Below are positions 2,643-14,583 of a stretch of 40,560 nt of DNA, one piece after another (the stretch's first letter is position 1; every line of letters begins with the position of its first letter). Under the pieces are notes generated by a model, which was not told the DNA's origin, did not search any database, and saw only the letters and a list, made by a program, of their open reading frames with translations. Made by a program: the position numbers and the translations under genes. Origin of the DNA: a phage; sequence record QB031379.1; one strand, given 5' to 3'.

Positions 2643-5294
2643 TTAGGCAAACGCAAAGTCTGACTTAAGGATTTCTTGCAGGTCCAGAGAACCTTTAGCT
2701 GGCATCTCAGGCATCTTGTCAAGCTGTGATTCGTGCAACTGGTCAGCAAATTGCTCATAGAAGTCTGCAAGTACATCGTTCTCTTCGTAAGTGTTGACCA
2801 TCGTTTCACGCACCGCTTTAAACAGGTTGCCAGCATCAGCAGGGATAGTACCAAAGGAGTCGTGAATCAGTGCGAACGATTCCACACCGTAGACCTCATT
2901 GGAGCGGACCACAGTCATACGCAGGTGGCTACCATCCATTGAGTGGACAAAGTTAGGTGCGATGCCTGACTCCTGCTTACGAGCATCAATTCCGCTATCC
3001 TTGTTGGTGTTCACGGTAGGCTGTAGACGAATCTGGCCTAAGAACATCAGGTTCAAGCGTGTCTGTACTGGCTTCTTGTATTCCTGCCAGACCGGGAAGC
3101 CATCAGGAGTAACCCAATGTACCGCACAGCGTTTGCGCAGAACCTCTTTTGTCTTCTTGTCCTTGACTTCAGCAGCCAGCAGTTTAGCAGCAGACTTCAG
3201 CCAGTTCATTGCTTCAACCGCAGCGACCACTGTCACCGTTACCGCGTTCCAAATCAGTTTAGCCATGTAGCCAGCCGCTTGGTTCGGTTGAGTGAACATC
3301 AAGCCCTTGCCATCGTCGATAGCTGGCTGAATTGTATCCTCTAGCACTTGGTCACGGAAGCCATACTCTTTGGAACCATACGCCAAGGTCATAACGGAAC
3401 GCTTAGTCTCCTTACGAGTAACACCGTATGCTAACCATTGACCAGCCAGTTCCTTCGTGCCCAGCTTGAGCTTCTCAGTGATTTCCCCTGTGTCCTTATT
3501 GGTCACGGTTTCGACTTCGTTGTCGGTGCCATTTATTACATCTTGCTTCAGAATCTCGTTGACACGTTCCGCTACGATGCGGTAGATGTCTTGTACCTCT
3601 TTGCTTGGCAGCAGGTTAACCGCACGACCACCAATCTCATCACGGAGCATCGCGGAGAAGTGCTGAATACCGGAGCAGCTACCATCGAACGCCAGCGGAA
3701 GAGAGCAGTTGTAGTTCATCCCGTGGTGTTGCACACCTGCATACTCGAAGCAGAACGCGAGGAAGCAGAACGGAGAATCTTGCTCGGCCCACCAAGTGTT
3801 AGCAATCGGGTCAGCCGCAACGCTCATGATGTTCTCATGGTTGTCATCAATGAACTTGATGCGTTCTGCAAAGTCCACCTTGTCCACGCCAGCAGTGTTA
3901 GCACCGTGAATCTTCAGCCAGTAGTACCCATCGACACCGATTGGTTTACCTTTAGCCAACGTCAGCAGACCTTTAGTCATGTCGTTGCCTTGCGGGTTAA
4001 ACATCGGCACAGCATACACACGACCGCGCCAGTCCATGTTCATTGGGAACCAGATAGCTTTGAACTGTGCGAACTTATTGGCCTGACCTAACATGAACTC
4101 CATGCTCATGCGGCGTGACACTCGTGCCTTCTCTTTGCGGTAGATTGCGGAGGCCGCTTTCTTCCACGCTTTCAGAGCCGCTTCGTTCGTGTCGATGTCT
4201 TCAGGTTTGACCGGGAGTTCCCCACGTTCCAGAGCAGGAACATCGTCAACCGGGCAATGCTTCCAGTTCACAATCTCGTTGACCACTGCCAGAACCTTCT
4301 TGTTAATCTTCCAAGGAGTATTCTGTGCGATGTTCACGGCCTTGTAAACTTCAGGCATGTACACATCGTTGTAACGCTCAAGTCCCTTCTTGCTACCAGT
4401 GCGAACCAGAGAGAGAGGCTTGCGACCAGCAGCCCAATAGCCACCACCGACCGGAGAAGTCCAAGGCTTAGGTGGGACCACGCAAGGCTGATACATTGGA
4501 GCGATTGCAGCCAGTGCACCAGCACGTTTAGATAACAGGTCAACGTATTGTTCGGTCAGTTGGATGTACTCGCCATCCTTCTCGATGTTCCCAGCGAACG
4601 GGCGGTGTAACTCAACGAGACCAGTAGACCCAATGAGCAGTTCCAACATGCGCACACCAACGTGAATTGATTCTTCAGGTGTCCATGTGGTCCACTTGGT
4701 TTGCAGTTGACCAGCATCAAGCATCTTGCCTTCTACAGCTTGCATGAATGCTTTCTTGTAGACGATACCAACGCGCTTGTTCAGTGCCTCCTGTACGTGG
4801 TTCTTAAAGTGCTTCGCTTCTTCGTCACGGATGCGACCAAAACGCAGTTCATCCTCAATACTGCGACCAATCTTAGTGGCGACCGATTGCAGGTTGGTGA
4901 ACTCTTCTTTCGTCAAGCAAGCGAGTGTGACCTTCAGTGTGATAAATGCAGCAGCTTCAGGTGCAACCTTCTGTACCAGATTGTAGGCTACTGGACGCTT
5001 GCCACGCTTCGCTTCCACTTCAGTGAACCAAGCGTTCCACGCCTCGATAAACTTCGGTGCGAGAGATGACAGGAGCGGTTTAGCCACTGCGTTATCACCG
5101 AACTCACCCGCTTTGATTTGACGTTCCATTGCCTTGAGGAAACGCTTCTCGCCTTCGGTGTGCGCTTCGTGCTCAAGCTGTAACTGCGTAGCTGCAAGCT
5201 GTGCGCCGTAATGGTCAGCCAGAATGTTGTATGGCATGATTGCGTTAGCGATGTCAGAGAAGTCGTTCTTTGGTGCGTTGATTACGTTAGTCAT
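2643..5294 (-). CDS. Single-subunit DNA-dependent RNA polymerase (T7 gene 1 homolog)
   Basis: 883 aa; long colinear blocks shared with T7/T3 RNAP (e.g. NMDWRGRVYAV, LPLAFDGSCSGIQHFSAMLRDE, ALIHDSFGT, C-terminal ...SDFAFA). Confidence 0.97.
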   Translation of the reverse strand: MTNVINAPKNDFSDIANAIMPYNILADHYGAQLAATQLQLEHEAHTEGEKRFLKAMERQIKAGEFGDNAVAKPLLSSLAPKFIEAWNAWFTEVEAKRGKRPVAYNLVQKVAPEAAAFITLKVTLACLTKEEFTNLQSVATKIGRSIEDELRFGRIRDEEAKHFKNHVQEALNKRVGIVYKKAFMQAVEGKMLDAGQLQTKWTTWTPEESIHVGVRMLELLIGSTGLVELHRPFAGNIEKDGEYIQLTEQYVDLLSKRAGALAAIAPMYQPCVVPPKPWTSPVGGGYWAAGRKPLSLVRTGSKKGLERYNDVYMPEVYKAVNIAQNTPWKINKKVLAVVNEIVNWKHCPVDDVPALERGELPVKPEDIDTNEAALKAWKKAASAIYRKEKARVSRRMSMEFMLGQANKFAQFKAIWFPMNMDWRGRVYAVPMFNPQGNDMTKGLLTLAKGKPIGVDGYYWLKIHGANTAGVDKVDFAERIKFIDDNHENIMSVAADPIANTWWAEQDSPFCFLAFCFEYAGVQHHGMNYNCSLPLAFDGSCSGIQHFSAMLRDEIGGRAVNLLPSKEVQDIYRIVAERVNEILKQDVINGTDNEVETVTNKDTGEITEKLKLGTKELAGQWLAYGVTRKETKRSVMTLAYGSKEYGFRDQVLEDTIQPAIDDGKGLMFTQPNQAAGYMAKLIWNAVTVTVVAAVEAMNWLKSAAKLLAAEVKDKKTKEVLRKRCAVHWVTPDGFPVWQEYKKPVQTRLNLMFLGQIRLQPTVNTNKDSGIDARKQESGIAPNFVHSMDGSHLRMTVVRSNEVYGVESFALIHDSFGTIPADAGNLFKAVRETMVNTYEENDVLADFYEQFADQLHESQLDKMPEMPAKGSLDLQEILKSDFAFA

Positions 5295-7493: not shown

Positions 7494-7548
7494 TGATTAT
7501 CATAAAGAGCACGCATTGTTACTTAATGTGCGCCCTTGAGTTAATCGC
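7494..7548 (-). promoter_or_regulatory. RNase III processing hairpin (R0.3-like) in the early leader
   Basis: gattatcataaagagcacgcattgttacttaatgtgcgcccttgagttaatcgc; more diverged family member. Confidence 0.5.
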
Positions 7549-7723
7549 TATTGGCGTTATCACGGCTTAAACGCTAGTGCGTTCACGTCATCCCCGTAGT
7601 TCTTGACTACCTGTCCCGCAGTAAGGGAATTACACGACCATATTGTTAAAGAACTTTAAGTGCAGGTTTCGTTAGCACCGAGTCACTTTCAGTGTGTGAC
7701 CTCACAAGAACGTTATGTCGTAC

Positions 7724-7753
7724 ATCTTACATCTTGTTGTTGCTACTTGTCAA
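7724..7753 (-). promoter_or_regulatory. Host sigma70-type early promoter: -35 TTGACA, 18-nt spacer, -10 TAAGAT
   Basis: Read on the - strand; element arrangement matches the T7 A2 promoter as I recall it. Confidence 0.5.
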
Positions 7754-7819
7754 CTACTTTTGTTTCTCACCGTGACACCTCATGTTGTTTCAGAGGGCGA
7801 CCAGTTGTTGACGACTGCT

Positions 7820-7848
7820 ATACTACGTTATTGCTTTCGTTGAGTCAA
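7820..7848 (-). promoter_or_regulatory. Host sigma70-type early promoter: -35 TTGACT, 17-nt spacer, -10 TAGTAT
   Basis: Read on the - strand in the early leader. Confidence 0.5.
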
Positions 7849-7954
7849 CCACTTTCGTGTGTCTGGTTGATGACTACTTGAGACATTCCCGCCTCACCAG
7901 ATAACTCTAGGTCTTGTCTAGTGGTTGGTAGCGCTGTGTCTCTCAACGGTTGCT

Positions 7955-7983
7955 ATAGTCTCATAAGCCATTATTAATGTCAA
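7955..7983 (-). promoter_or_regulatory. Host sigma70-type early promoter: -35 TTGACA, 17-nt spacer, weak -10 GACTAT, AT-rich upstream
   Basis: Read on the - strand; the -10 is non-canonical, so this is tentative. Confidence 0.35.
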
Positions 7984-8070
7984 TACTTAATTTTAAGAAA
8001 CTCAAAGTCTCTCTAAGTGGTCTTATAGTCTCTTATAGTGGACATAAAGAGAGGATGACCAGTATTAGCT

Positions 8071-8094
8071 ATTCCTCAATAGTGAGTCGCATTA
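8071..8094 (-). promoter_or_regulatory. Phage-RNAP promoter (phiOL-like): TAATGCGACTCACTATTGAGGAA
   Basis: T7-type core with G at -13 and A at +2; position upstream of the host promoters matches T7 phiOL. Confidence 0.55.
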
Positions 8095-8274
8095 AAGGCT
8101 ATTGACCATCAGCCACCTTTAAGGCACTATAGGCACTCAGTCGATTCTACTTGTCCCTCTCATCACTCAGGGACTGCTAAACAGAGTGAGATAGTGATTT
8201 CCCTTTGTGACGAAGCCTATTGGTCACTGATAAACATAAGGCACTGACTGAAGGTTAACATAAGGATAAGCAGG

Positions 8275-8326
8275 CATAAGGTGATGACATAAGGTGTTGA
8301 CATAAGGTGATGACATAAGGTGATAA
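8275..8326. repeat. Four tandem 13-bp repeats (cataaggtgatga-type); the heptamer CATAAGG / CCTTATG recurs at least 10 times between 8236 and 8680
   Basis: Seen directly; flanks the inferred terminal repeat on both sides, analogous in position to the T7 CCTAAAG repeats near its genome ends. Confidence 0.8.
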
Positions 8327-8346
8327 CTCAAAGGTCACTTACAGAT

Positions 8347-8540
8347 AGGGACACAGAGAGGACTACATATAGTGGTCATAAGGTATCACTAAGCACCATA
8401 TCTAGTGGTTACACCTAGAGTTAACCCAATGTCTCACAAAAGGGTTGACTTCAGGTAAACCATGAGTTACCATAGAGGAAGGCTCTTTGGGTGGACTGAA
8501 GGAGGCCATAGGGGGGACTCGGTGTTTATGAACTATGAGA
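8347..8540 (-). repeat. Inferred terminal repeat region and concatemer junction (single collapsed copy); physical left end at about 8540 on the - strand
   Basis: Revcomp from 8540 reads TCTCATAGTTCATAAACACCGAGTCCCCCCTATGG, resembling the T3/T7 left ends; revcomp at 8336-8360 reads CTCTCTGTGTCCCT ATCTGTAAGTG, matching the T7 repeat boundary and CJ-like ATCTGT element. Boundaries approximate. Confidence 0.5.
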
Positions 8541-8770
8541 TACTCACTCAGATTTTTCTGTAGGATTCTTAAAGGGGTACATCAAGTCTCATAAGGTTAA
8601 CCACAGAGGCTCTATCATAAGGTTAGACTACGTGAGAGACCCTAAGAGACCCTGTAGACCATAGAGGGTACATAAGGGTTACTCTTAGAGTTGACTTCTT
8701 ACAGTGATTATAGGGAAGATGTATATCGACCATAATCACTAAGAGCGCGCACTAAGCGCCAATGAGTAGT

Positions 8771-8926
8771 CTAAGAAACACAAGTGAGTAGAGAACAAAG
8801 CAGAGTCTCCAGTTCGCCGATGTGTTCAGCACTAGATGCGAGGCCAATGGAAGCAGCAAGTACAACGAGAAATTTGTAGGTCACTCGATGCGTTGCCAGT
8901 GTCTTGAGCACGGATAGTAAGCGCAT
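8771..8926 (-). CDS. gp19.5-like small protein, 51 aa
   Basis: Hand-translated MRLLSVLKTLATHRVTYKFLVVLAASIGLASSAEHIGELETLLCSLLTCVS; RBS AAGGAGG; resembles my recollection of T7 gp19.5; last gene before the genome end. Confidence 0.6.
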   Translation of the reverse strand: MRLLSVLKTLATHRVTYKFLVVLAASIGLASSAEHIGELETLLCSLLTCVS

Positions 8927-9081
8927 AGAGCGTCCTCCTTGTTATACTTGATGGTTACACTGTTAGTAGGGATGTAATTACTATTACTATCATCCCTCAC
9001 TGTAAGGGTCTCTAAGAGTAGTCACTAAGTATGCACTTTGCATATGCAGTCTATAAGTGTCTTTAAGTTGTCTTAGGGTGC

Positions 9082-9105
9082 CCTTCCCAATAGTGAGTCG
9101 TATTA
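9082..9105 (-). promoter_or_regulatory. Phage-RNAP promoter (phiOR-like): TAATACGACTCACTATTGGGAAGG
   Basis: Full consensus between the terminase gene and the gene 19.5 ORF. Confidence 0.8.
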
Positions 9106-9192: not shown

Positions 9193-10950
9193 TTACCACT
9201 CAATGAAGCAGCTAGAGTCTCCATCGTCCTCATAGTAGATGTCCACGCCACCAACATCGTAGCTATGGATAGCATCACCACCAATGGTCTGTTTCTCCAT
9301 GTGATGTTCAAGGAACTCAAGGGTCATCTCTTCTTCACCGATACGGCTGTCCACAAGCATCCCCTCGCGTAGCCATTCGATACCCAATGCGATAGCATCA
9401 AGTCGGTCATCGTGTGCCACAGCGCCTCGCTCACGAGTCATACGGGTCATCTGATAGAACGCACTGTAGCGAACATCATGTTTCCCATCAAGGTCACGAG
9501 CAGTCTGGTAGTCCTCACGGATAACCTCATCACGAATGACCAGCTTGTGTGCACCCATCAACGGTTCGATAGTATCGCAGATTCGCATCTCCTTCATGCC
9601 CTTAGCACGGATTTCCTCTAAGGCACACTTATGGTTCTTCAGGAGAATCGGAGAGAAAATCTTACCGAACATACCATCACCGAAGTTGGACTCATGGACG
9701 ACTGTCTGTACCTTCCACTGCTTGGCCTTCTTAGCGAGCTTCTCTAAGGTAGCATCATCGTAGCCACCACGGAACCCTCCGACTTCCATCAGGTAGATGT
9801 AACCGTTCAGTGAGTAGAGGACTGCATACCCGGTCTCATCCTTACCACGACCACTTGGGTCAATGACCAGAATCTTAGACTGATACTCAGCGGTGCGAGA
9901 AGAGCACGTATGGAACGCATGGATGTCATCACCCTTCAGACCAACGTTAGGGAGTTCCTCATTGCGGTTCTGACGGTTCGGCAACCACTGGTAAGACAAT
10001 GGGGCACGTTCAGGGTCCACAGCGCACACGATAGCATCACGGAGTCGTAGCGGGTACTTCTCGGCATCACTAAGGTTCGGGTTAAGCATGAACTGAAGTG
10101 TGTAGCCAGCTTTACCATATTCGAGTTCACGTTCACGGAGGTCATCCATATCGAATCGAACAGGGTCAGTAGGTTGACCACGGAGTAACTCGAAGCCATC
10201 ATCATACTCTTGCTTAAGCATAGGAGCCAGTCGGTCGCCATAGTAGAGAGCCTCAGCGTCATTACGTGGATACTGTGCTGGCCAGATTACTGTGCTGTAC
10301 CCTTTGTTGTCCTCAAGTTCCTTGTAGAGAGTCATCTCGGTTTGAGGTGTCCCAAGGTAGATAACACGAGAGGTAGGCAGTGGCTTAAGTAATGCAGCAA
10401 ACTCAGTTACCAACGTCCAGAGCTTCTCACGGGCAGAACTCGTAGAGCTATTACCGGGAACCTCAACGTCATCTGCGATAATGATGTCAGCACGACTACC
10501 AGTCAACTGACCAGTGATACCCACAGACTTCACAGAAGGTGAGTGGTCGGGTTTCGCCAAGCCAACGTCGAAGCTAATCACGGAGTCACGCTGTCCCGGT
10601 CGAGGTTTCAACTCAGAGAGGAACGGAAGGAGGTCGATGATGTTCTTGATGAAGATGGAGTTAGCATCAGCACGTTCCTTAGAGGCAGACACGATGAGCA
10701 CCTTGAGTTGAGGGTCACGCCATAAGACCCACACAACGAATGCACAGGTGATAAATGACTTGCCGATACCACGGAACGCCTGAAGGATAAACTTCTTGTG
10801 GTCGCCGTTAGCGAGTGTACGTGCCATATCAATCTGACACTTGGTTGGTTTAGGTAAGTTCAGAGCCTTCCATAAGACGAACAGGAAGGCCACGAAGTCA
10901 CCCTTAAGTTGCGCCACGATGAGCGCATTCTTGTTTGCTTGAGTAGACAT
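9193..10950 (-). CDS. Terminase large subunit / DNA maturase B (T7 gene 19 homolog)
   Basis: 585 aa; colinear with T7 gp19 as I recall it; RBS AGGAGG upstream of the ATG at 10950. Confidence 0.95.
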
Positions 10951-10965
10951 TGTGGCCTCCTATTG

Positions 10966-11523
10966 TTACTTGGCAGGTTTCTCTAAGGCAGCAATGCGCT
11001 TCTCTAGAGCCTTGATAGTGTCGGTCTTAGATACAGCCCCGTCGATGTTACTAGGTTGGAACATAACGGAAGCGCTCTTCCCTTCGCTGTCCACGAACTG
11101 TGTACCAAATTCACTATCAGACGCAGAAAGCGTTGCACCAACTAAGGAAGCCATACCACCTTCAGGTTCAGGGTCAGCACCAGTCCACTCTTTGTATACG
11201 TCGATTCGAACCATACCGAGTCGCTCAGCGCTTTGCTCATTCAGGAACACCGTCATGAACCCGCTACCCGGTTTAGACTCGACGGAGCCACCCCAAGTGG
11301 ACATAAGGGTCTCGAACGTAGCATGTTGCTCAGTGGTGCCATCGCTAAGTTGAACAACGTATTCAACCTTAGAGTAGCCCTCAACCTTAACCATCTCCGA
11401 AGCTGGGATGTCGATACGCCCAACACGAATACCAATATTGTTGAGGTCATACACATCACGACTGTCTGGTGAGCGACCATTGATGGTCCAGAGTGTACGG
11501 GTTCTTGAGTTTGTAGTAGCCAT
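10966..11523 (-). CDS. Hypothetical 185-aa late protein inserted between the spanin genes and terminase; no T7 counterpart recognised
   Basis: ORF track; strong RBS AAGGAGAAATAAT-ATG; tightly packed (stop 16 nt before the gene 19 start); acidic, Cys-free, no hydrophobic segment, C-terminal helix-like KTDTIKALEKRIAALEKPAK. Confidence 0.7.
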   Translation of the reverse strand: MATTNSRTRTLWTINGRSPDSRDVYDLNNIGIRVGRIDIPASEMVKVEGYSKVEYVVQLSDGTTEQHATFETLMSTWGGSVESKPGSGFMTVFLNEQSAERLGMVRIDVYKEWTGADPEPEGGMASLVGATLSASDSEFGTQFVDSEGKSASVMFQPSNIDGAVSKTDTIKALEKRIAALEKPAK

Positions 11524-11524
11524 A

Positions 11525-11968
11525 TTATTTCTCCTTCTTAGATTGCATTTCAGTTATTGTATTTTGGAGCGCTTTAATCCACGCATCCCCTCTTTGAGTT
11601 ACTCCGATAAGACGCTTACTAAACTCTTCGTCAAGTTCGGCTCGACCATCAACGAGGCATCCACCGTTAGCTTGGAGTTCTCGTGAGGTGGCTGATAGTT
11701 TGACGCGCAAGCGCTTACCATCGTTACGCAAATCATTAATGACCCTATCAGTGCTGCCTTCCAGCGCCGCAAGGTCTTCTTGGTATTGTCGTGAGACTTC
11801 ATTGAGAGCAGCCTGTTTATCCGCAGTCGCCTCAACTTTCTTAACGTACTCATTGTGCACCTCCTGTTCCCATTTAGTGTTAGCCTTGTCATAGCCGTGG
11901 TTGTACGCAAGGGTCATCCCCAAGACAAAAGCCGCAGCGATGGCGTAGCTCTTTAAATTCTTGAGCAT
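11525..11968 (-). CDS. Rz-like i-spanin (T7 gene 18.5 homolog)
   Basis: 147 aa; N-terminal membrane anchor MLKNLKSYAIAAAFVLGMTLAY then a charged coiled-coil region. Confidence 0.85.
   Translation of the reverse strand: MLKNLKSYAIAAAFVLGMTLAYNHGYDKANTKWEQEVHNEYVKKVEATADKQAALNEVSRQYQEDLAALEGSTDRVINDLRNDGKRLRVKLSATSRELQANGGCLVDGRAELDEEFSKRLIGVTQRGDAWIKALQNTITEMQSKKEK
11599..11853 (-). CDS. Rz1-like o-spanin lipoprotein embedded in the +1 frame of gene 18.5 (T7 gene 18.7 homolog)
   Basis: ORF-track frame trimmed to MSTLRKLRRL...; putative lipobox ...MVSAC; ...LMVEPNLT... matches T7 gp18.7 as I recall it. Confidence 0.7.
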   Translation of the reverse strand: MSTLRKLRRLRINRLLSMKSHDNTKKTLRRWKAALIGSLMICVTMVSACASNYQPPHENSKLTVDASLMVEPNLTKSLVSVLSE

Positions 11969-12581: not shown

Positions 12582-14513
12582 TTATTGGTTTTGGACTAAG
12601 ATTCGCGTAGGGACTGAACGGTTGTCTTGGTCGTTACGGAAAGTTCGCCCGTTGTTAGAGATTGTGAACTTAAGCCAACCACCATCAGATGAGATGAAGT
12701 AAGCCGCATTGTCACCAATAGGCACAGCGTTCCAGCGTCCGTTAGTCTGAATCCAGATGGTTCTCCAACGAACATCCTGTGAGAGACCTACGGAAACACC
12801 ACCACCAGCAGAGCCGCTCCAGACCTCAGCCCACCCAGCGTTCTTATTGACGTATCGACCATCAGCTTGCGCTTGAGTTAACCGTCCATTGACTAGGTTG
12901 TTTACTTCGCTTTTATTGTAGGCATGTTCTCCAAGGCGTTTGTTGACCCAACCGTCGATGTAAGAATCATACTTCTTGATGTATAAGTTACCATCTGGCG
13001 GGATGTTCCACCCGGAGCTAGATGATAGAGTACCATTCGAGTCAAAAGAATATTCCCTGTTAGCTGCCTGACCAAAGTTGAATCGCCAAGCCCCAGCACC
13101 GGGGTCTTTGTAGAGATAACCATCAGTGTAGGAATCGCTGGTTTTCATTTGAATATGCCGCCGAGCAGAGTTAATCATCATCAGGTTCTGTGAGCGAGTC
13201 TGTAAAACCCCCCTTGCGTCGATTGAACCATCTGCACTAAAGTTAGTCTTAGTGGTAAGCGAGCCATTAATTTGCAGGTGTGCGTCTTGAGAATCAGCCC
13301 CACCAAACTGCAAGTACATCCCATACCCTTTACCATAATTAGACCCGAACTCCAGCACGTTACCACGTCCAGAATCATTACCCCAAACAAAGATGTCCCA
13401 AGCGCGCTCTTTGTGGTCTCTGTTGCGAAGGCGTAGCGTGTTATCATTTAGGAACGCTGTGTTTGGTTGTACCCCAGCATGGATAGAATCCTTAGCAAGC
13501 ATTGTATTCCCATTCACGCCACCCTTGAAGTTAATATCCTTGCCGTTACTCCCAATGCTCTCAATGGTTCCCGCTAGGTCATTCATATTACCCAACTTGT
13601 CGGCCTCAGACTTAGCACGGTCAGCCTCACTCTTAGAGCGGTTTGCCTCAGTGTTGGCTCGGTCAGCATGTCCCTTAGCGGTAGCAACGTGTGCAGCAGC
13701 TTTGGCAACCTCAGCAGCAGCCTTAGTCACTTCTCCGGCAGCACGATTGGCCTCATCACTGGCACGATTGGCCTCAGAGTTAGAACGGTCAGCTTGCTTC
13801 TTGGCCTCAGCGACACTTGCGGTCATACTATCAGCATAACCTTTAGCTCGGTTAGCCTCAGAGTTGGAACGGTCAGCTTGCTTCTTGGACTCAACCGCCT
13901 GTGCCGTAGAGACGCCTGCCTGTTGGGTTGAGCGGTCAGCTTCACGTTTTGCACGGTCAGCTTCATCTCGCGATCGGTTAGCCTCAGTGTTAGAGCGGTT
14001 AGCGTGTTCATTGGCCTTGTTAACAGCGTTCCAAGCAGACGACTCGCGCTCTTTTACTTGCTTCAGAGGGACAGCATCGTAGTCACTGGTAGCGAACGCT
14101 AGGTTCACAATCTTACGACCACGGGCATCCAAGTGACCATCATTGTTGACACCAATGGTATCCGCAGTTAGGTCTCGTGCCTCTTCAGCTACGTGCAGCG
14201 TCTGAATCTGTGAGATGTTAAGGTCATACGCACGAAGGATTGAGCCATCAGCAAAGTCAACCAGACGGTCGGTTGCAGAAGTGAATCGACGAATCTCAAT
14301 CATCTGATAACCATCGGCAGCAGTCCACGCACGGGAGGTTGTGATTTGGGTCTTAGTGGTAAAGCGATAGTCCTGATTGAGAACCAACTCTTTACGGTCT
14401 TTCCCGATGAGTGTCACTTGGACGAACTTACGTGCTAAATACTCAAAGGTAATCGTGAAGTTCACGGCACCGTTCAGTGGGTAAGTACGTACAGTGGAAA
14501 TTTTGTTAGCCAT
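12582..14513 (-). CDS. Tail fiber protein (T7 gene 17 homolog) with expanded repeat-rich shaft
   Basis: 643 aa (T7 about 553); the N-terminal attachment region and the C-terminal tip (...WSGSAGGGVSV...SSDGGWL...) resemble T7 gp17; middle contains ADRSNSEANRA-type repeats. Confidence 0.9.
   Translation of the reverse strand: MANKISTVRTYPLNGAVNFTITFEYLARKFVQVTLIGKDRKELVLNQDYRFTTKTQITTSRAWTAADGYQMIEIRRFTSATDRLVDFADGSILRAYDLNISQIQTLHVAEEARDLTADTIGVNNDGHLDARGRKIVNLAFATSDYDAVPLKQVKERESSAWNAVNKANEHANRSNTEANRSRDEADRAKREADRSTQQAGVSTAQAVESKKQADRSNSEANRAKGYADSMTASVAEAKKQADRSNSEANRASDEANRAAGEVTKAAAEVAKAAAHVATAKGHADRANTEANRSKSEADRAKSEADKLGNMNDLAGTIESIGSNGKDINFKGGVNGNTMLAKDSIHAGVQPNTAFLNDNTLRLRNRDHKERAWDIFVWGNDSGRGNVLEFGSNYGKGYGMYLQFGGADSQDAHLQINGSLTTKTNFSADGSIDARGVLQTRSQNLMMINSARRHIQMKTSDSYTDGYLYKDPGAGAWRFNFGQAANREYSFDSNGTLSSSSGWNIPPDGNLYIKKYDSYIDGWVNKRLGEHAYNKSEVNNLVNGRLTQAQADGRYVNKNAGWAEVWSGSAGGGVSVGLSQDVRWRTIWIQTNGRWNAVPIGDNAAYFISSDGGWLKFTISNNGRTFRNDQDNRSVPTRILVQNQ
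13768..13894. repeat. Two copies of a roughly 45-bp direct repeat (about 90 percent identical, about 80 bp apart) inside the tail-fiber gene
   Basis: attggcctcagagttagaacggtcagcttgcttcttggcctcagc and gttagcctcagagttggaacggtcagcttgcttcttggactcaac; encode the repeated KKQADRSNSEANRA shaft motif. Confidence 0.7.
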
Positions 14514-14560: not shown

Positions 14561-14583
14561 CTTCCCAATAGTGAGTCGTATTG
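14561..14583 (-). promoter_or_regulatory. Phage-RNAP late promoter (phi17-like): CAATACGACTCACTATTGGGAAGG
   Basis: Consensus core upstream of the tail-fiber gene; transcript 5' end forms a GGGAAG/CUUCCC stem. Confidence 0.85.

What the first reader, a model, noticed from the sequence alone, without database searches (positions are those of the whole stretch)
10966..11523. Well-packed 185-aa late gene between the spanin genes and terminase, with no T7 counterpart I recognise
In T7 gene 19 follows 18.5/18.7 directly. Here an ORF with a strong RBS (AAGGAGAAATAAT-ATG) fills the gap, ending 16 nt before the gene 19 start. The product is acidic, Cys-free, has no hydrophobic segment and ends in a helix-like KTDTIKALEKRIAALEKPAK. 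Late expression and composition fit a virion-associated or assembly protein, but an anti-defence role cannot be excluded. I cannot assign it to any family from memory.
Basis: partly seen in the sequence, partly recalled or inferred. Interest (0 to 1): 0.65.

Follow-up and report, generated by a model that had tools for sequence, protein, structure and literature searches.

The report
Accessory gp18.9-like late protein, probable fibre
This is a real, conserved but dispensable late gene of BA14/Berlin-type T7-like phages, already catalogued as a hypothetical protein ("gp18.9" in Erwinia phage L1); its build suggests a small add-on virion fibre, but no experiment has shown what it does.

Summary
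A 185-codon ORF lies on the minus strand at 10966-11523, with an AAGGAG ribosome-binding site. It starts 1 nt after the Rz spanin stop and ends 15 nt before the terminase ATG. The product is acidic, Cys-free and has no hydrophobic segment. It is under purifying selection (dN/dS about 0.15).

The window is a Berlinvirus genome. The protein is 100% identical to a hypothetical protein of Enterobacter phage PZJ0206 and matches PHROG 20446 (unknown function) end to end.

It belongs to a very small superfamily that always occupies the Rz-TerL slot and includes "gp18.9" of Erwinia phage L1 and Klebsiella phage Sibilus gp5. All members share a roughly 120-aa N-terminal domain ending in DPEPE. The C-terminal halves are swapped between members. 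Some of these halves are homologous to tail-fibre domains, and one carries the crAss001 gp21 head-fibre motif.

At least 24 close relatives lack the gene at the same junction, so it is accessory.

Best reading (about 0.45): a small oligomeric virion fibre or decoration protein that aids adsorption, analogous to the phi29 and crAss001 head fibres. This is unproven, and the window's own C-terminal half has no homologue outside the family. An anti-defence or other intracellular role is not excluded. Interest is moderate.

The parts
10966..11523 (-). Coding sequence of the 185-aa gp18.9-like protein (stop codon included)
   Evidence: ORF list. PHROG 20446 full-length match, E 6e-127. 100% identical to the PZJ0206 hypothetical protein. 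dN/dS 0.15.
11531..11536 (-). Shine-Dalgarno sequence AAGGAG, 7 nt upstream of the ATG and inside the end of gene 18.5
   Evidence: Read directly from the sequence.
11161..11523 (-). Conserved N-terminal domain (aa 1-121), a beta-rich fold with one helix that ends in the Pro/Glu hinge DPEPE (aa 117-121); proposed anchor
   Evidence: 33 invariant columns across the family. pLDDT is about 80-90. Profile search of 1.84 billion representatives finds only 17 true relatives. hhalign to the L1/Sibilus type gives probability 94%, E 1.3e-7. dN/dS 0.10.
10969..11160 (-). Variable C-terminal half (aa 122-185), 'type 1': a short beta motif (FGTQFVDSEGK..VMFQ) followed by a helix-turn-helix
   Evidence: Found only in BA14-type phages. 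Conserved among type-1 relatives. Low model confidence. dN/dS 0.29.
10981..11025 (-). C-terminal amphipathic helix (aa 167-181, TIKALEKRIAALEK), a probable coiled-coil oligomerisation element
   Evidence: Predicted helix. I170, L173, R176, A179, L180 and E181 are nearly invariant across types 1 and 2. Resembles designed three-stranded coiled coils such as Coil-VaLd, E 0.002; this is weak evidence.
11525..11968 (-). Gene 18.5 (Rz i-spanin), upstream neighbour; its stop is 1 nt from the ATG
   Evidence: Pfam Phage_lysis and PHROG 1327.
11599..11853 (-). Gene 18.7 (o-spanin) embedded in 18.5, with lipobox ..MVSAC
   Evidence: Translation. Same position as in the BA14 annotation.
9193..10950 (-). 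Gene 19 (large terminase subunit), downstream neighbour, 15 nt after the stop
   Evidence: Pfam PF22530 and PHROG 38.
14563..14582 (-). Phage RNA polymerase promoter phi17, the nearest promoter upstream of the gene
   Evidence: Exact match to the BA14/Yepe2 promoter core; none expected by chance.
9085..9104 (-). Phage promoter phiOR, the next promoter, downstream of gene 19
   Evidence: annotated as phiOR in BA14.

Best explanation
The ORF encodes the Berlinvirus version of 'gp18.9', a non-essential late protein of some T7-like (Studiervirinae) phages.

My best-supported reading is that it is a small oligomeric fibre or decoration protein on the virion.
- The conserved N-terminal domain (aa 1-121) would dock on a conserved virion component, either the capsid or the tail.
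- The Pro/Glu hinge (DPEPE) would give flexibility.
- The C-terminal part would project outwards, and the terminal coiled-coil helix would hold the subunits together.
- Like the head fibres of phi29 (gp8.5) and crAss001 (gp21), it would give weak, reversible binding to host surface polymers. That would improve adsorption in natural settings while being dispensable in the laboratory.

Shown here:
- The gene is real.
- It sits in a late transcription unit.
- Its family, its fixed genomic slot and its modular architecture.
- The homology of relatives' modules to fibre proteins.
- Its accessory (present or absent) status.

Inferred only: virion association, oligomeric state, the docking site and any adsorption role.
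For: 1. Context: the gene is co-transcribed with genes 17-19 from phi17, has a strong RBS and starts 1 nt after the Rz stop.
2. Architecture: a conserved N-domain, the DPEPE hinge, and at least four unrelated C-terminal module types, often followed by a conserved terminal helix. This is the pattern of phage fibres and receptor-binding proteins.
3. Fibre homology of modules in relatives:
   - The 256-aa variant's C-terminal half matches PHROG 6578 'tail fiber protein' (E 2e-4).
   - It also matches annotated tail fibres of Xanthomonas phage RTH11 (E 4e-8), a T5-like L-shaped fibre (E 4e-4) and rV5-like phages (positions).
   - The L1/Sibilus-type C-terminus matches the crAss001 head-fibre trimer gp21 (PDB 7qof, E 3.5e-4). 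That gp21 domain is homologous to phi29 gp8.5 (PMC10172136).
4. These relatives are true homologues of the window protein:
   - They occupy the same Rz-TerL slot.
   - Foldseek links the window model to Sibilus gp5 (E 2e-5).
   - hhalign gives probability 94%.
   - P0026 bridges the two types, with one type's N-domain and the other's C-terminus.
5. Dispensability, as for known head fibres: at least 24 close relatives lack the gene (example), and phage Carena keeps only a 75-aa in-frame remnant.
6. Negative evidence against other roles: no membrane segment, no Cys, no enzyme motif, and no hit in Pfam, NCBIfam or PADLOC.
Against: - I found no virion proteomics or cryo-EM evidence for any family member. 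The Yep-phi proteomics paper is not held.
- The window's own C-terminal half (64 aa) has no homologue outside BA14-type phages and is poorly modelled. The fibre evidence therefore comes from relatives.
- Neighbouring genes in the same operon (holin, spanins, terminase) are not structural.
- Variable C-termini can also arise from an arms race with host defences.
Confidence: 0.45

Rival explanations
1. It is an intracellular accessory protein, such as an anti-defence factor, a modulator of a host function, or a superinfection-exclusion factor. On this reading the variable C-terminal half tracks variable host targets and the protein never enters the virion.
For: - The gene is present or absent among very close relatives, as is typical of accessory or counter-defence genes.
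- The C-terminal half evolves faster than the N-domain (dN/dS 0.29 against 0.10) and is swapped between lineages.
- The product is small, acidic and soluble.
- C-terminal types 1, 3 and 4 have no fibre homologues.
Against: - It is expressed from the late structural and packaging operon, not among the early or middle genes where the known T7-group host-takeover genes lie (gene order).
- Two module types in relatives are homologous to tail-fibre and head-fibre proteins, which is hard to explain for an intracellular inhibitor.
- There is no match in PADLOC, although that library covers defence rather than anti-defence systems.
Confidence: 0.22
2. It is an assembly helper: a chaperone or scaffold for the gp17 tail fibre, like the P2/Mu/lambda Tfa proteins, or an accessory of lysis or DNA packaging. 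It would be made late but not kept in the particle.
For: - Its size (185-300 aa) and its layout, with a conserved N-terminal part and a variable C-terminal part, resemble modular tail-fibre assembly proteins (from my own knowledge of the Tfa family).
- It lies in the late operon between the lysis and packaging genes and is closely coupled to Rz.
Against: - It is not adjacent to gene 17; holin, TerS and Rz/Rz1 intervene.
- Its C-terminal type does not follow the gp17 type. The window's gp17 is 87% identical to that of PYps50T, which carries the 256-aa variant. It is only about 70% identical to the gp17 of BA14 and P483, which carry the same type-1 variant.
- vB_SEqdws-315 lacks the gene yet has a gp17 81% identical over 82% of its length.
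- Spanin and terminase flanks that are 91-100% identical occur without it.
- There is no Pfam match to tail-fibre assembly families.
Confidence: 0.12
3. It is a non-functional or merely tolerated ORF, a remnant of an insertion.
For: It is absent from many relatives and internally deleted in phage Carena.
Against: - Purifying selection: dN/dS 0.15, and 0.10 in the N-domain.
- 33 invariant residues across members only about 50% identical.
- A confidently folded N-domain.
- A conserved RBS and packing, and conservation of the slot across three genera.
Confidence: 0.03

Closest known systems
Hypothetical proteins of BA14-type Berlinviruses (PZJ0206; 285P LXB_046; BA14 ACF15774 'unknown product'; FE44; P483_44), which make up PHROG 20446
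   Same: They are the same gene: 90-100% amino-acid identity over the full length, in the same Rz-TerL slot.
   Different: Nothing substantive. None has an assigned function.
The 201-aa (Yepe2/Berlin/Yep-phi) and 256-aa (vB_YpP_T3, PYps49T/50T) proteins of Yersinia Berlinviruses (PHROG 27102 and relatives)
   Same: They share the N-terminal domain (about 57-67% identity), the DPEPE hinge and the slot. The 256-aa type also shares the C-terminal ALEKRIAALEKPA helix.
   Different: The C-terminal halves are unrelated to the window's. The 256-aa type carries an extra domain of about 100 aa that is homologous to tail-fibre domains.
gp18.9 of Erwinia phage vB_EamP-L1 and gp5 of Klebsiella phage Sibilus (PHROG 5004; genera Elunavirus and Ningirsuvirus)
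   Same: They have the same slot and similar size. The N-domain is homologous at profile and structure level, and P0026 bridges the two types.
   Different: Pairwise identity is only about 15-24%. Their C-terminus carries YTKAEVD-type repeats and the head-fibre motif LATGA.L..V.KVNE.I..L, which the window protein lacks.
Head fibres: phi29 gp8.5 and crAss001 gp21
   Same: On my proposed reading it would work the same way: a small, dispensable, oligomeric appendage with an N-terminal anchor and a projecting C-terminal part. Relatives of the window protein share a 31-residue C-terminal motif with gp21. That gp21 domain is homologous to gp8.5.
   Different: The window protein itself lacks that motif. 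Its N-domain is unrelated in sequence to the gp21 and gp8.5 anchors. Capsid binding is untested. No T7-like phage is known to me to carry head fibres.
T7 gene 18.5 / 18.7 / 19 region
   Same: The flanking genes and their order are the same.
   Different: From my knowledge of the T7 gene map, T7 has no gene between 18.5/18.7 and 19. Many close relatives with 91-100% identical flanks also have none.

Membership tests
PHROG 20446 (BA14-type hypothetical protein) | Full-length profile match | tested here: met
   E 6.3e-127, residues 1-185 aligned to profile positions 1-185 of 185.
gp18.9 superfamily (PHROGs 20446, 27102 and 5004) | Location between the Rz/Rz1 spanin genes and the large terminase gene | tested here: met
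   Seen in the window and in BA14, Yepe2, PYps49T, two metagenomic contigs, Sibilus, L1, pEp_SNUABM_11, Bubbas and SK1.
gp18.9 superfamily (PHROGs 20446, 27102 and 5004) | Homologous N-terminal domain of about 110-120 aa | tested here: met
   hhalign of the N-domain profile against the L1/Sibilus-type alignment, without the bridging sequence, gives probability 94% and E 1.3e-7. Foldseek to Sibilus gp5 gives E 2.3e-5. The L1-type HMM hits the window ORF at E 7e-9 among 303 window ORFs.
Head fibre proteins (phi29 gp8.5 / crAss001 gp21) | C-terminal head-fibre domain or motif (LATGAELATVVTKVNAILSALK in gp21) | tested here: not met
   The motif is present in L1/Sibilus-type relatives (E 3.5e-4 to 7qof_l). 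The window protein and its C-terminal half give no such match.
Head fibre proteins (phi29 gp8.5 / crAss001 gp21) | Bound to the capsid in the mature virion | not testable with these tools
   This needs virion mass spectrometry or cryo-EM. No such data were found in the papers held.
Head fibre proteins (phi29 gp8.5 / crAss001 gp21) | Homo-oligomeric (trimeric) fibre | tested here: inconclusive
   The C-terminal helix profile resembles designed three-stranded coiled coils (E 0.002). That match is short and driven by composition, and no multimer prediction was available.
Head fibre proteins (phi29 gp8.5 / crAss001 gp21) | Dispensable for plaque formation | tested here: met
   By comparative genomics only: at least 24 viable close relatives lack the gene, and one has an internal deletion.
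Tail fibre assembly proteins (P2 gpG / Mu gpU / lambda Tfa type) | Gene immediately downstream of the fibre gene, with a variable part that follows the fibre tip | tested here: not met
   Three or four genes separate it from gene 17. Its C-terminal type does not follow the gp17 type. There is no Pfam match.
Tail fibre / receptor-binding proteins | Sequence or fold homology to a known fibre domain | tested here: inconclusive
Known defence-system proteins (PADLOC) | Profile match | tested here: not met
   No families matched at E up to 10. Anti-defence families are not covered by this library.

The most novel reading that the evidence does not exclude
gp18.9 proteins could be the first head-fibre or decoration-type appendage family of T7-like phages. 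On this reading a new anchor domain displays exchangeable distal modules, some drawn from the tail-fibre and head-fibre gene pools. The family would then be an overlooked second host-recognition or adsorption determinant that is gained, lost and re-tipped as a cassette at the Rz/TerL junction.
Probability: 0.35. Interest if true: 0.6.

Novelty: new variant of a known kind. Interest (0 to 1): 0.4.

Why it matters
T7-like phages are among the best-understood viruses and are widely used for therapy, diagnostics (for example Yersinia pestis typing phages) and engineering. Host range in this group is normally attributed to gp17 alone.

If gp18.9 is a virion fibre with swappable tips, it would be a second, cassette-like determinant of adsorption, and it varies between otherwise near-identical phages. 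That could explain host-range or efficiency differences that gp17 does not account for. It could also offer a naturally dispensable site for display or engineering.

If gp18.9 instead acts inside the cell, it would be a late-expressed accessory factor of unknown type in a phage group commonly used in defence-system screens (PhiV-1, BASEL phages). Either way, natural isogenic-like pairs with and without the gene already exist, which makes the question cheap to test.

Tried and rejected
**Searches that returned nothing useful for the window protein**
- Pfam, NCBIfam and PADLOC gave nothing significant.
- PDB sequence searches with the protein and with the N-domain profile gave nothing.
- The afdb50 Foldseek library was not available.
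- Pfam and NCBIfam on longer relatives and on the L1 type gave nothing.
- Module types 3 and 4 have no homologues in other phage proteins.
- A PDB profile search with the type-2 C-terminal half returned only coiled-coil peptides.
- An IMG/VR scan returned only the reference phages already seen.
- A second large protein search with the L1-type profile added only 7 unnamed proteins.
- There is no paralogue of the N-domain elsewhere in the window, including gp17.

**Literature**
- No paper held mentions this gene's function or its detection in virions.
- The Yep-phi proteomics paper is not held.

**Ideas rejected**
- Three repetitive proteins in the exhaustive search (P0027, P0029, P0030) are spurious hits.
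- An enzyme role is unlikely. The polar residues conserved in Berlinvirus members (NGRxPDSRD, GRIDIP, EGYSKVEY) are not kept in the L1/Sibilus type, which suggests a lineage-specific interface rather than a catalytic site.
- A membrane-protein role is rejected. The two transmembrane segments noted in the ETEP21B record are not supported by hydropathy.
- The sigma-70 promoter and terminator scan found no more than shuffled sequence gives, and it is not relevant to T7-type late transcription.

Full report
**1. The observation**

The sequence shows AAGGAG at 11536-11531, 7 nt upstream of the ATG at 11523. The TAA stop of the upstream gene ends 1 nt before that ATG. The next ATG follows 15 nt after the ORF's own TAA.

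The flanking genes are the Rz i-spanin (Pfam Phage_lysis, PHROG 1327) and the T7-type large terminase (PF22530). The holin and small terminase lie further upstream. The o-spanin, with a lipobox, is embedded in the Rz gene.

The product is 20.0 kDa with pI 4.8 and no cysteine. Its most hydrophobic 19-residue window averages only 0.49 on the Kyte-Doolittle scale. AlphaFold2 places a helix at residues 167-181.

A search with the promoter core annotated in BA14 and Yepe2 finds 12 sites, all on the minus strand, where none is expected by chance. The only two near the gene are phi17 (14563-14582) and phiOR (9085-9104). Genes 17 to 19, including this ORF, therefore form one late transcription unit. 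Late expression is inferred from the promoter map, not measured.

**2. It is a real gene in a known phage group**

The window is a Berlinvirus genome. The 4-kb region is 98% identical to Enterobacter phage PZJ0206 and 92-95% identical to phages 285P, BA14, FE44 and others. The protein is 100% identical to a PZJ0206 'hypothetical protein' and 90-98% identical to proteins of 285P, BSP161, P483, FE44, S523, BA14, ETEP21B and CarlSpitteler. All are annotated as unknown. It matches PHROG 20446 end to end (E 6e-127), a family of unknown function.

Nine alleles give a median pairwise dN/dS of 0.15. The value is 0.10 for residues 1-121 and 0.29 for residues 122-185. The ORF is therefore a constrained coding gene, not a chance reading frame.

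**3. Family and architecture**

The family is tiny.
- A word-seeded search of 5.8 billion proteins found 15 clusters.
- An exhaustive HMMER search of 1.84 billion representatives with the N-domain profile found 20 hits. Three of these are spurious repetitive proteins.
- All true members are 185-300 aa long.
- Every member whose context I examined lies between Rz and TerL of a T7-like phage.

The alignment shows a conserved N-terminal domain of about 120 aa, with 33 invariant columns, ending in a Pro/Glu-rich DPEPE hinge. After the hinge the sequences fall into at least four unrelated types:
- **Type 1**, the window's own short type: a small beta motif and a helix-turn-helix ending in ALEKRIAALEKPA. 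One relative has this helix unit duplicated in tandem.
- **Type 2**, 250-260 aa: an extra domain of about 100 aa followed by the same terminal helix.
- **Types 3 and 4**: both end in ..LKDALGI.

The N-domain folds confidently as a beta-rich domain with one helix. Its pLDDT is about 80 in the window model and 85-90 in the model of the long variant. The C-terminal half of the window protein is poorly modelled apart from the terminal helix.

**4. Wider relatives**

Foldseek against predicted viral structures linked the model to a 205-aa protein of Klebsiella phage Sibilus (E 2e-5) and a 204-aa protein of Dickeya phage Dagda. Sibilus gp5 sits in exactly the same slot. Its relatives do too, including the protein annotated 'gp18.9' in Erwinia phage vB_EamP-L1. 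These proteins form PHROG 5004.

Homology with the window's family rests on three results:
- A profile-profile comparison of the Berlinvirus N-domain with the L1/Sibilus type, leaving out the bridging sequence, gives probability 94% and E 1.3e-7.
- Protein P0026 has the Berlinvirus-type N-domain (E 2e-13) fused to the Sibilus-type C-terminus.
- The genomic slot is identical.

The window ORF is therefore the Berlinvirus form of gp18.9. Its statement that it fits no family is not.

**5. Clues to function from the swapped modules**

Tail-fibre links (type 2):
- The type-2 C-terminal half matches PHROG 6578 'tail fiber protein' (E 2e-4).
- By tblastn it matches a tail-fibre-domain protein of Xanthomonas phage RTH11 (36% identity, E 4e-8). 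It also matches the L-shaped tail fibre homologue of T5-like phage SP01 (E 4e-4) and the long tail fibres of rV5-like coliphages (28% identity, E about 3e-3). In each case the match is to an internal fibre domain.

Head-fibre link (L1/Sibilus type):
- A profile of the L1/Sibilus type matches one solved structure, the head-fibre trimer gp21 of crAss001 (7qof), over a 31-residue C-terminal motif (E 3.5e-4).
- The crAss001 paper reports that the first 38 residues of gp21 bind a hexon pocket. It also reports that the gp21 C-terminal domain is homologous to residues 226-280 of phi29 head fibre gp8.5 (PMC10172136).

Other observations:
- One relative (P0010) carries Ala/Ser/Glu repeats that resemble, by eye, the repeats of tail-fibre shafts.
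- The terminal helix of types 1 and 2 resembles designed three-stranded coiled coils (E 0.002). That match is short and driven by composition, so the oligomeric state stays open.

**6. The gene is accessory**

A 401-nt query spanning the Rz/TerL junction of phage vB_SEqdws-315, which has no gene there, matches as one uninterrupted piece in at least 24 distinct phages at 91-100% identity. These include P694, ErnstBeyeler, Shigella phage A7, Kvp1 and PP74. In carriers the same query splits into two pieces about 570-620 nt apart. Phage Carena keeps only a 75-aa in-frame remnant. An essential assembly role is therefore unlikely.

The C-terminal type does not follow the tail fibre. The window's gp17 is 87% identical to that of PYps50T, which carries type 2. 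It is only about 70% identical to the gp17 of BA14 and P483, which carry the window's type 1. This argues against a dedicated gp17 chaperone.

**7. Interpretation**

The combination points most economically to a small, non-essential virion appendage that works like the phi29 and crAss001 head fibres:
- late co-expression with structural genes;
- a conserved N-terminal domain, a hinge, exchangeable C-terminal modules and often a terminal coiled coil;
- modules in relatives that are homologous to tail-fibre and head-fibre proteins;
- dispensability.

I put this reading at about 0.45. The weak points are plain.
- Nothing shows that the protein is in the particle.
- The N-domain has no recognisable relative among solved anchor domains.
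- The window's own 64-residue C-terminal half has no homologue outside BA14-type phages.

An intracellular accessory role, such as anti-defence or exclusion, fits the presence/absence pattern and the fast-evolving C-terminus; I rate it at about 0.22. An assembly, lysis or packaging helper is less likely (0.12). A non-functional ORF is contradicted by the selection analysis (0.03).

**8. Novelty and score**

As a sequence the gene is already in GenBank and PHROGs, and one homologue has the name gp18.9. No function has been assigned in anything I could read.

If the fibre reading is right, it would be a new variant of a known kind: accessory head or auxiliary fibres built on a previously undescribed anchor domain, in a phage group not known to me to carry such fibres. 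Interest is moderate (0.4). The lead is plausible and cheap to test because natural carrier and non-carrier pairs exist, but the evidence for mechanism is indirect.

Noticed in passing
window 10951-11524 (junction between 18.5 and 19); loci L008, L007: The Rz/TerL junction is a presence/absence site. At least 24 close relatives have Rz abutting TerL with nothing between them. Carriers hold one of several gp18.9 types, and phage Carena has a 75-aa in-frame remnant. The region also holds an HNH endonuclease gene in ETEP21B.
   Followed up: partly
window 12582-14513 (-), gene 17: The tail fibre gp17 (643 aa) has a long degenerate repeat region of the form ANRS..EADRAK.EADRS in its shaft. TRF reports a 21-nt period at 13599-13667. 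Its closest relatives (PYps50T, 87%) carry a different gp18.9 type from the window's.
   Followed up: partly
window, whole (promoters at 1467, 1991, 2615, 8074, 9085, 14563, 22400, 26862, 27855, 30462, 35572, 39676): All 12 phage-RNAP promoter matches are on the minus strand. The gene order shows the late genes, then phiOR, then the early region with the 883-aa ORF at 2643-5294, which I take to be the RNA polymerase from its size and position (not checked by a family scan). The window therefore looks like a complete, circularly permuted genome in reverse orientation, with the genome ends somewhere near 7500-9000.
   Followed up: no
L018 (Escherichia phage ETEP21B, OR979722 35699-36256): The ETEP21B record starts the homologous CDS at an internal codon (locus position 70). 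It also carries a note of two Phobius transmembrane domains.
   Followed up: partly
protein P0004 (208 aa, metagenomic): This type-1 relative has a tandem duplication of the 25-aa unit SNIDGAV.KTNTIKALEKR..ALE. This suggests that the helix-turn-helix unit can be repeated to lengthen the C-terminal part.
   Followed up: no
L002 5413-5859 (Yepe2) and L005 6551-6997: Some relatives carry a 148-aa gene directly downstream of TerL: a 'gp7.7 homolog' in Yepe2, and in the metagenomic contig L005 a product with a weak HNH_3 (PF13392) hit. This is another variable spot next to the packaging genes. The window has no ORF of that size there.
   Followed up: no
window 10952-11353 (+): A 133-aa GTG-start ORF lies antisense to the gene. 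It has no support from conservation or context and is most likely a by-product of the codon pattern on the coding strand.
   Followed up: no
Foldseek BFVD hits: A0A2I7S4H5 (340 aa), A0A2I7QSA5 (416 aa), A0A096P6Z9 (343 aa), A0A516L422 (752 aa): Several larger, unnamed viral proteins match the model at E 1e-3 to 4e-2 with high probability. They might carry a related N-domain fused to longer fibres. Their sequences could not be fetched here.
   Followed up: no
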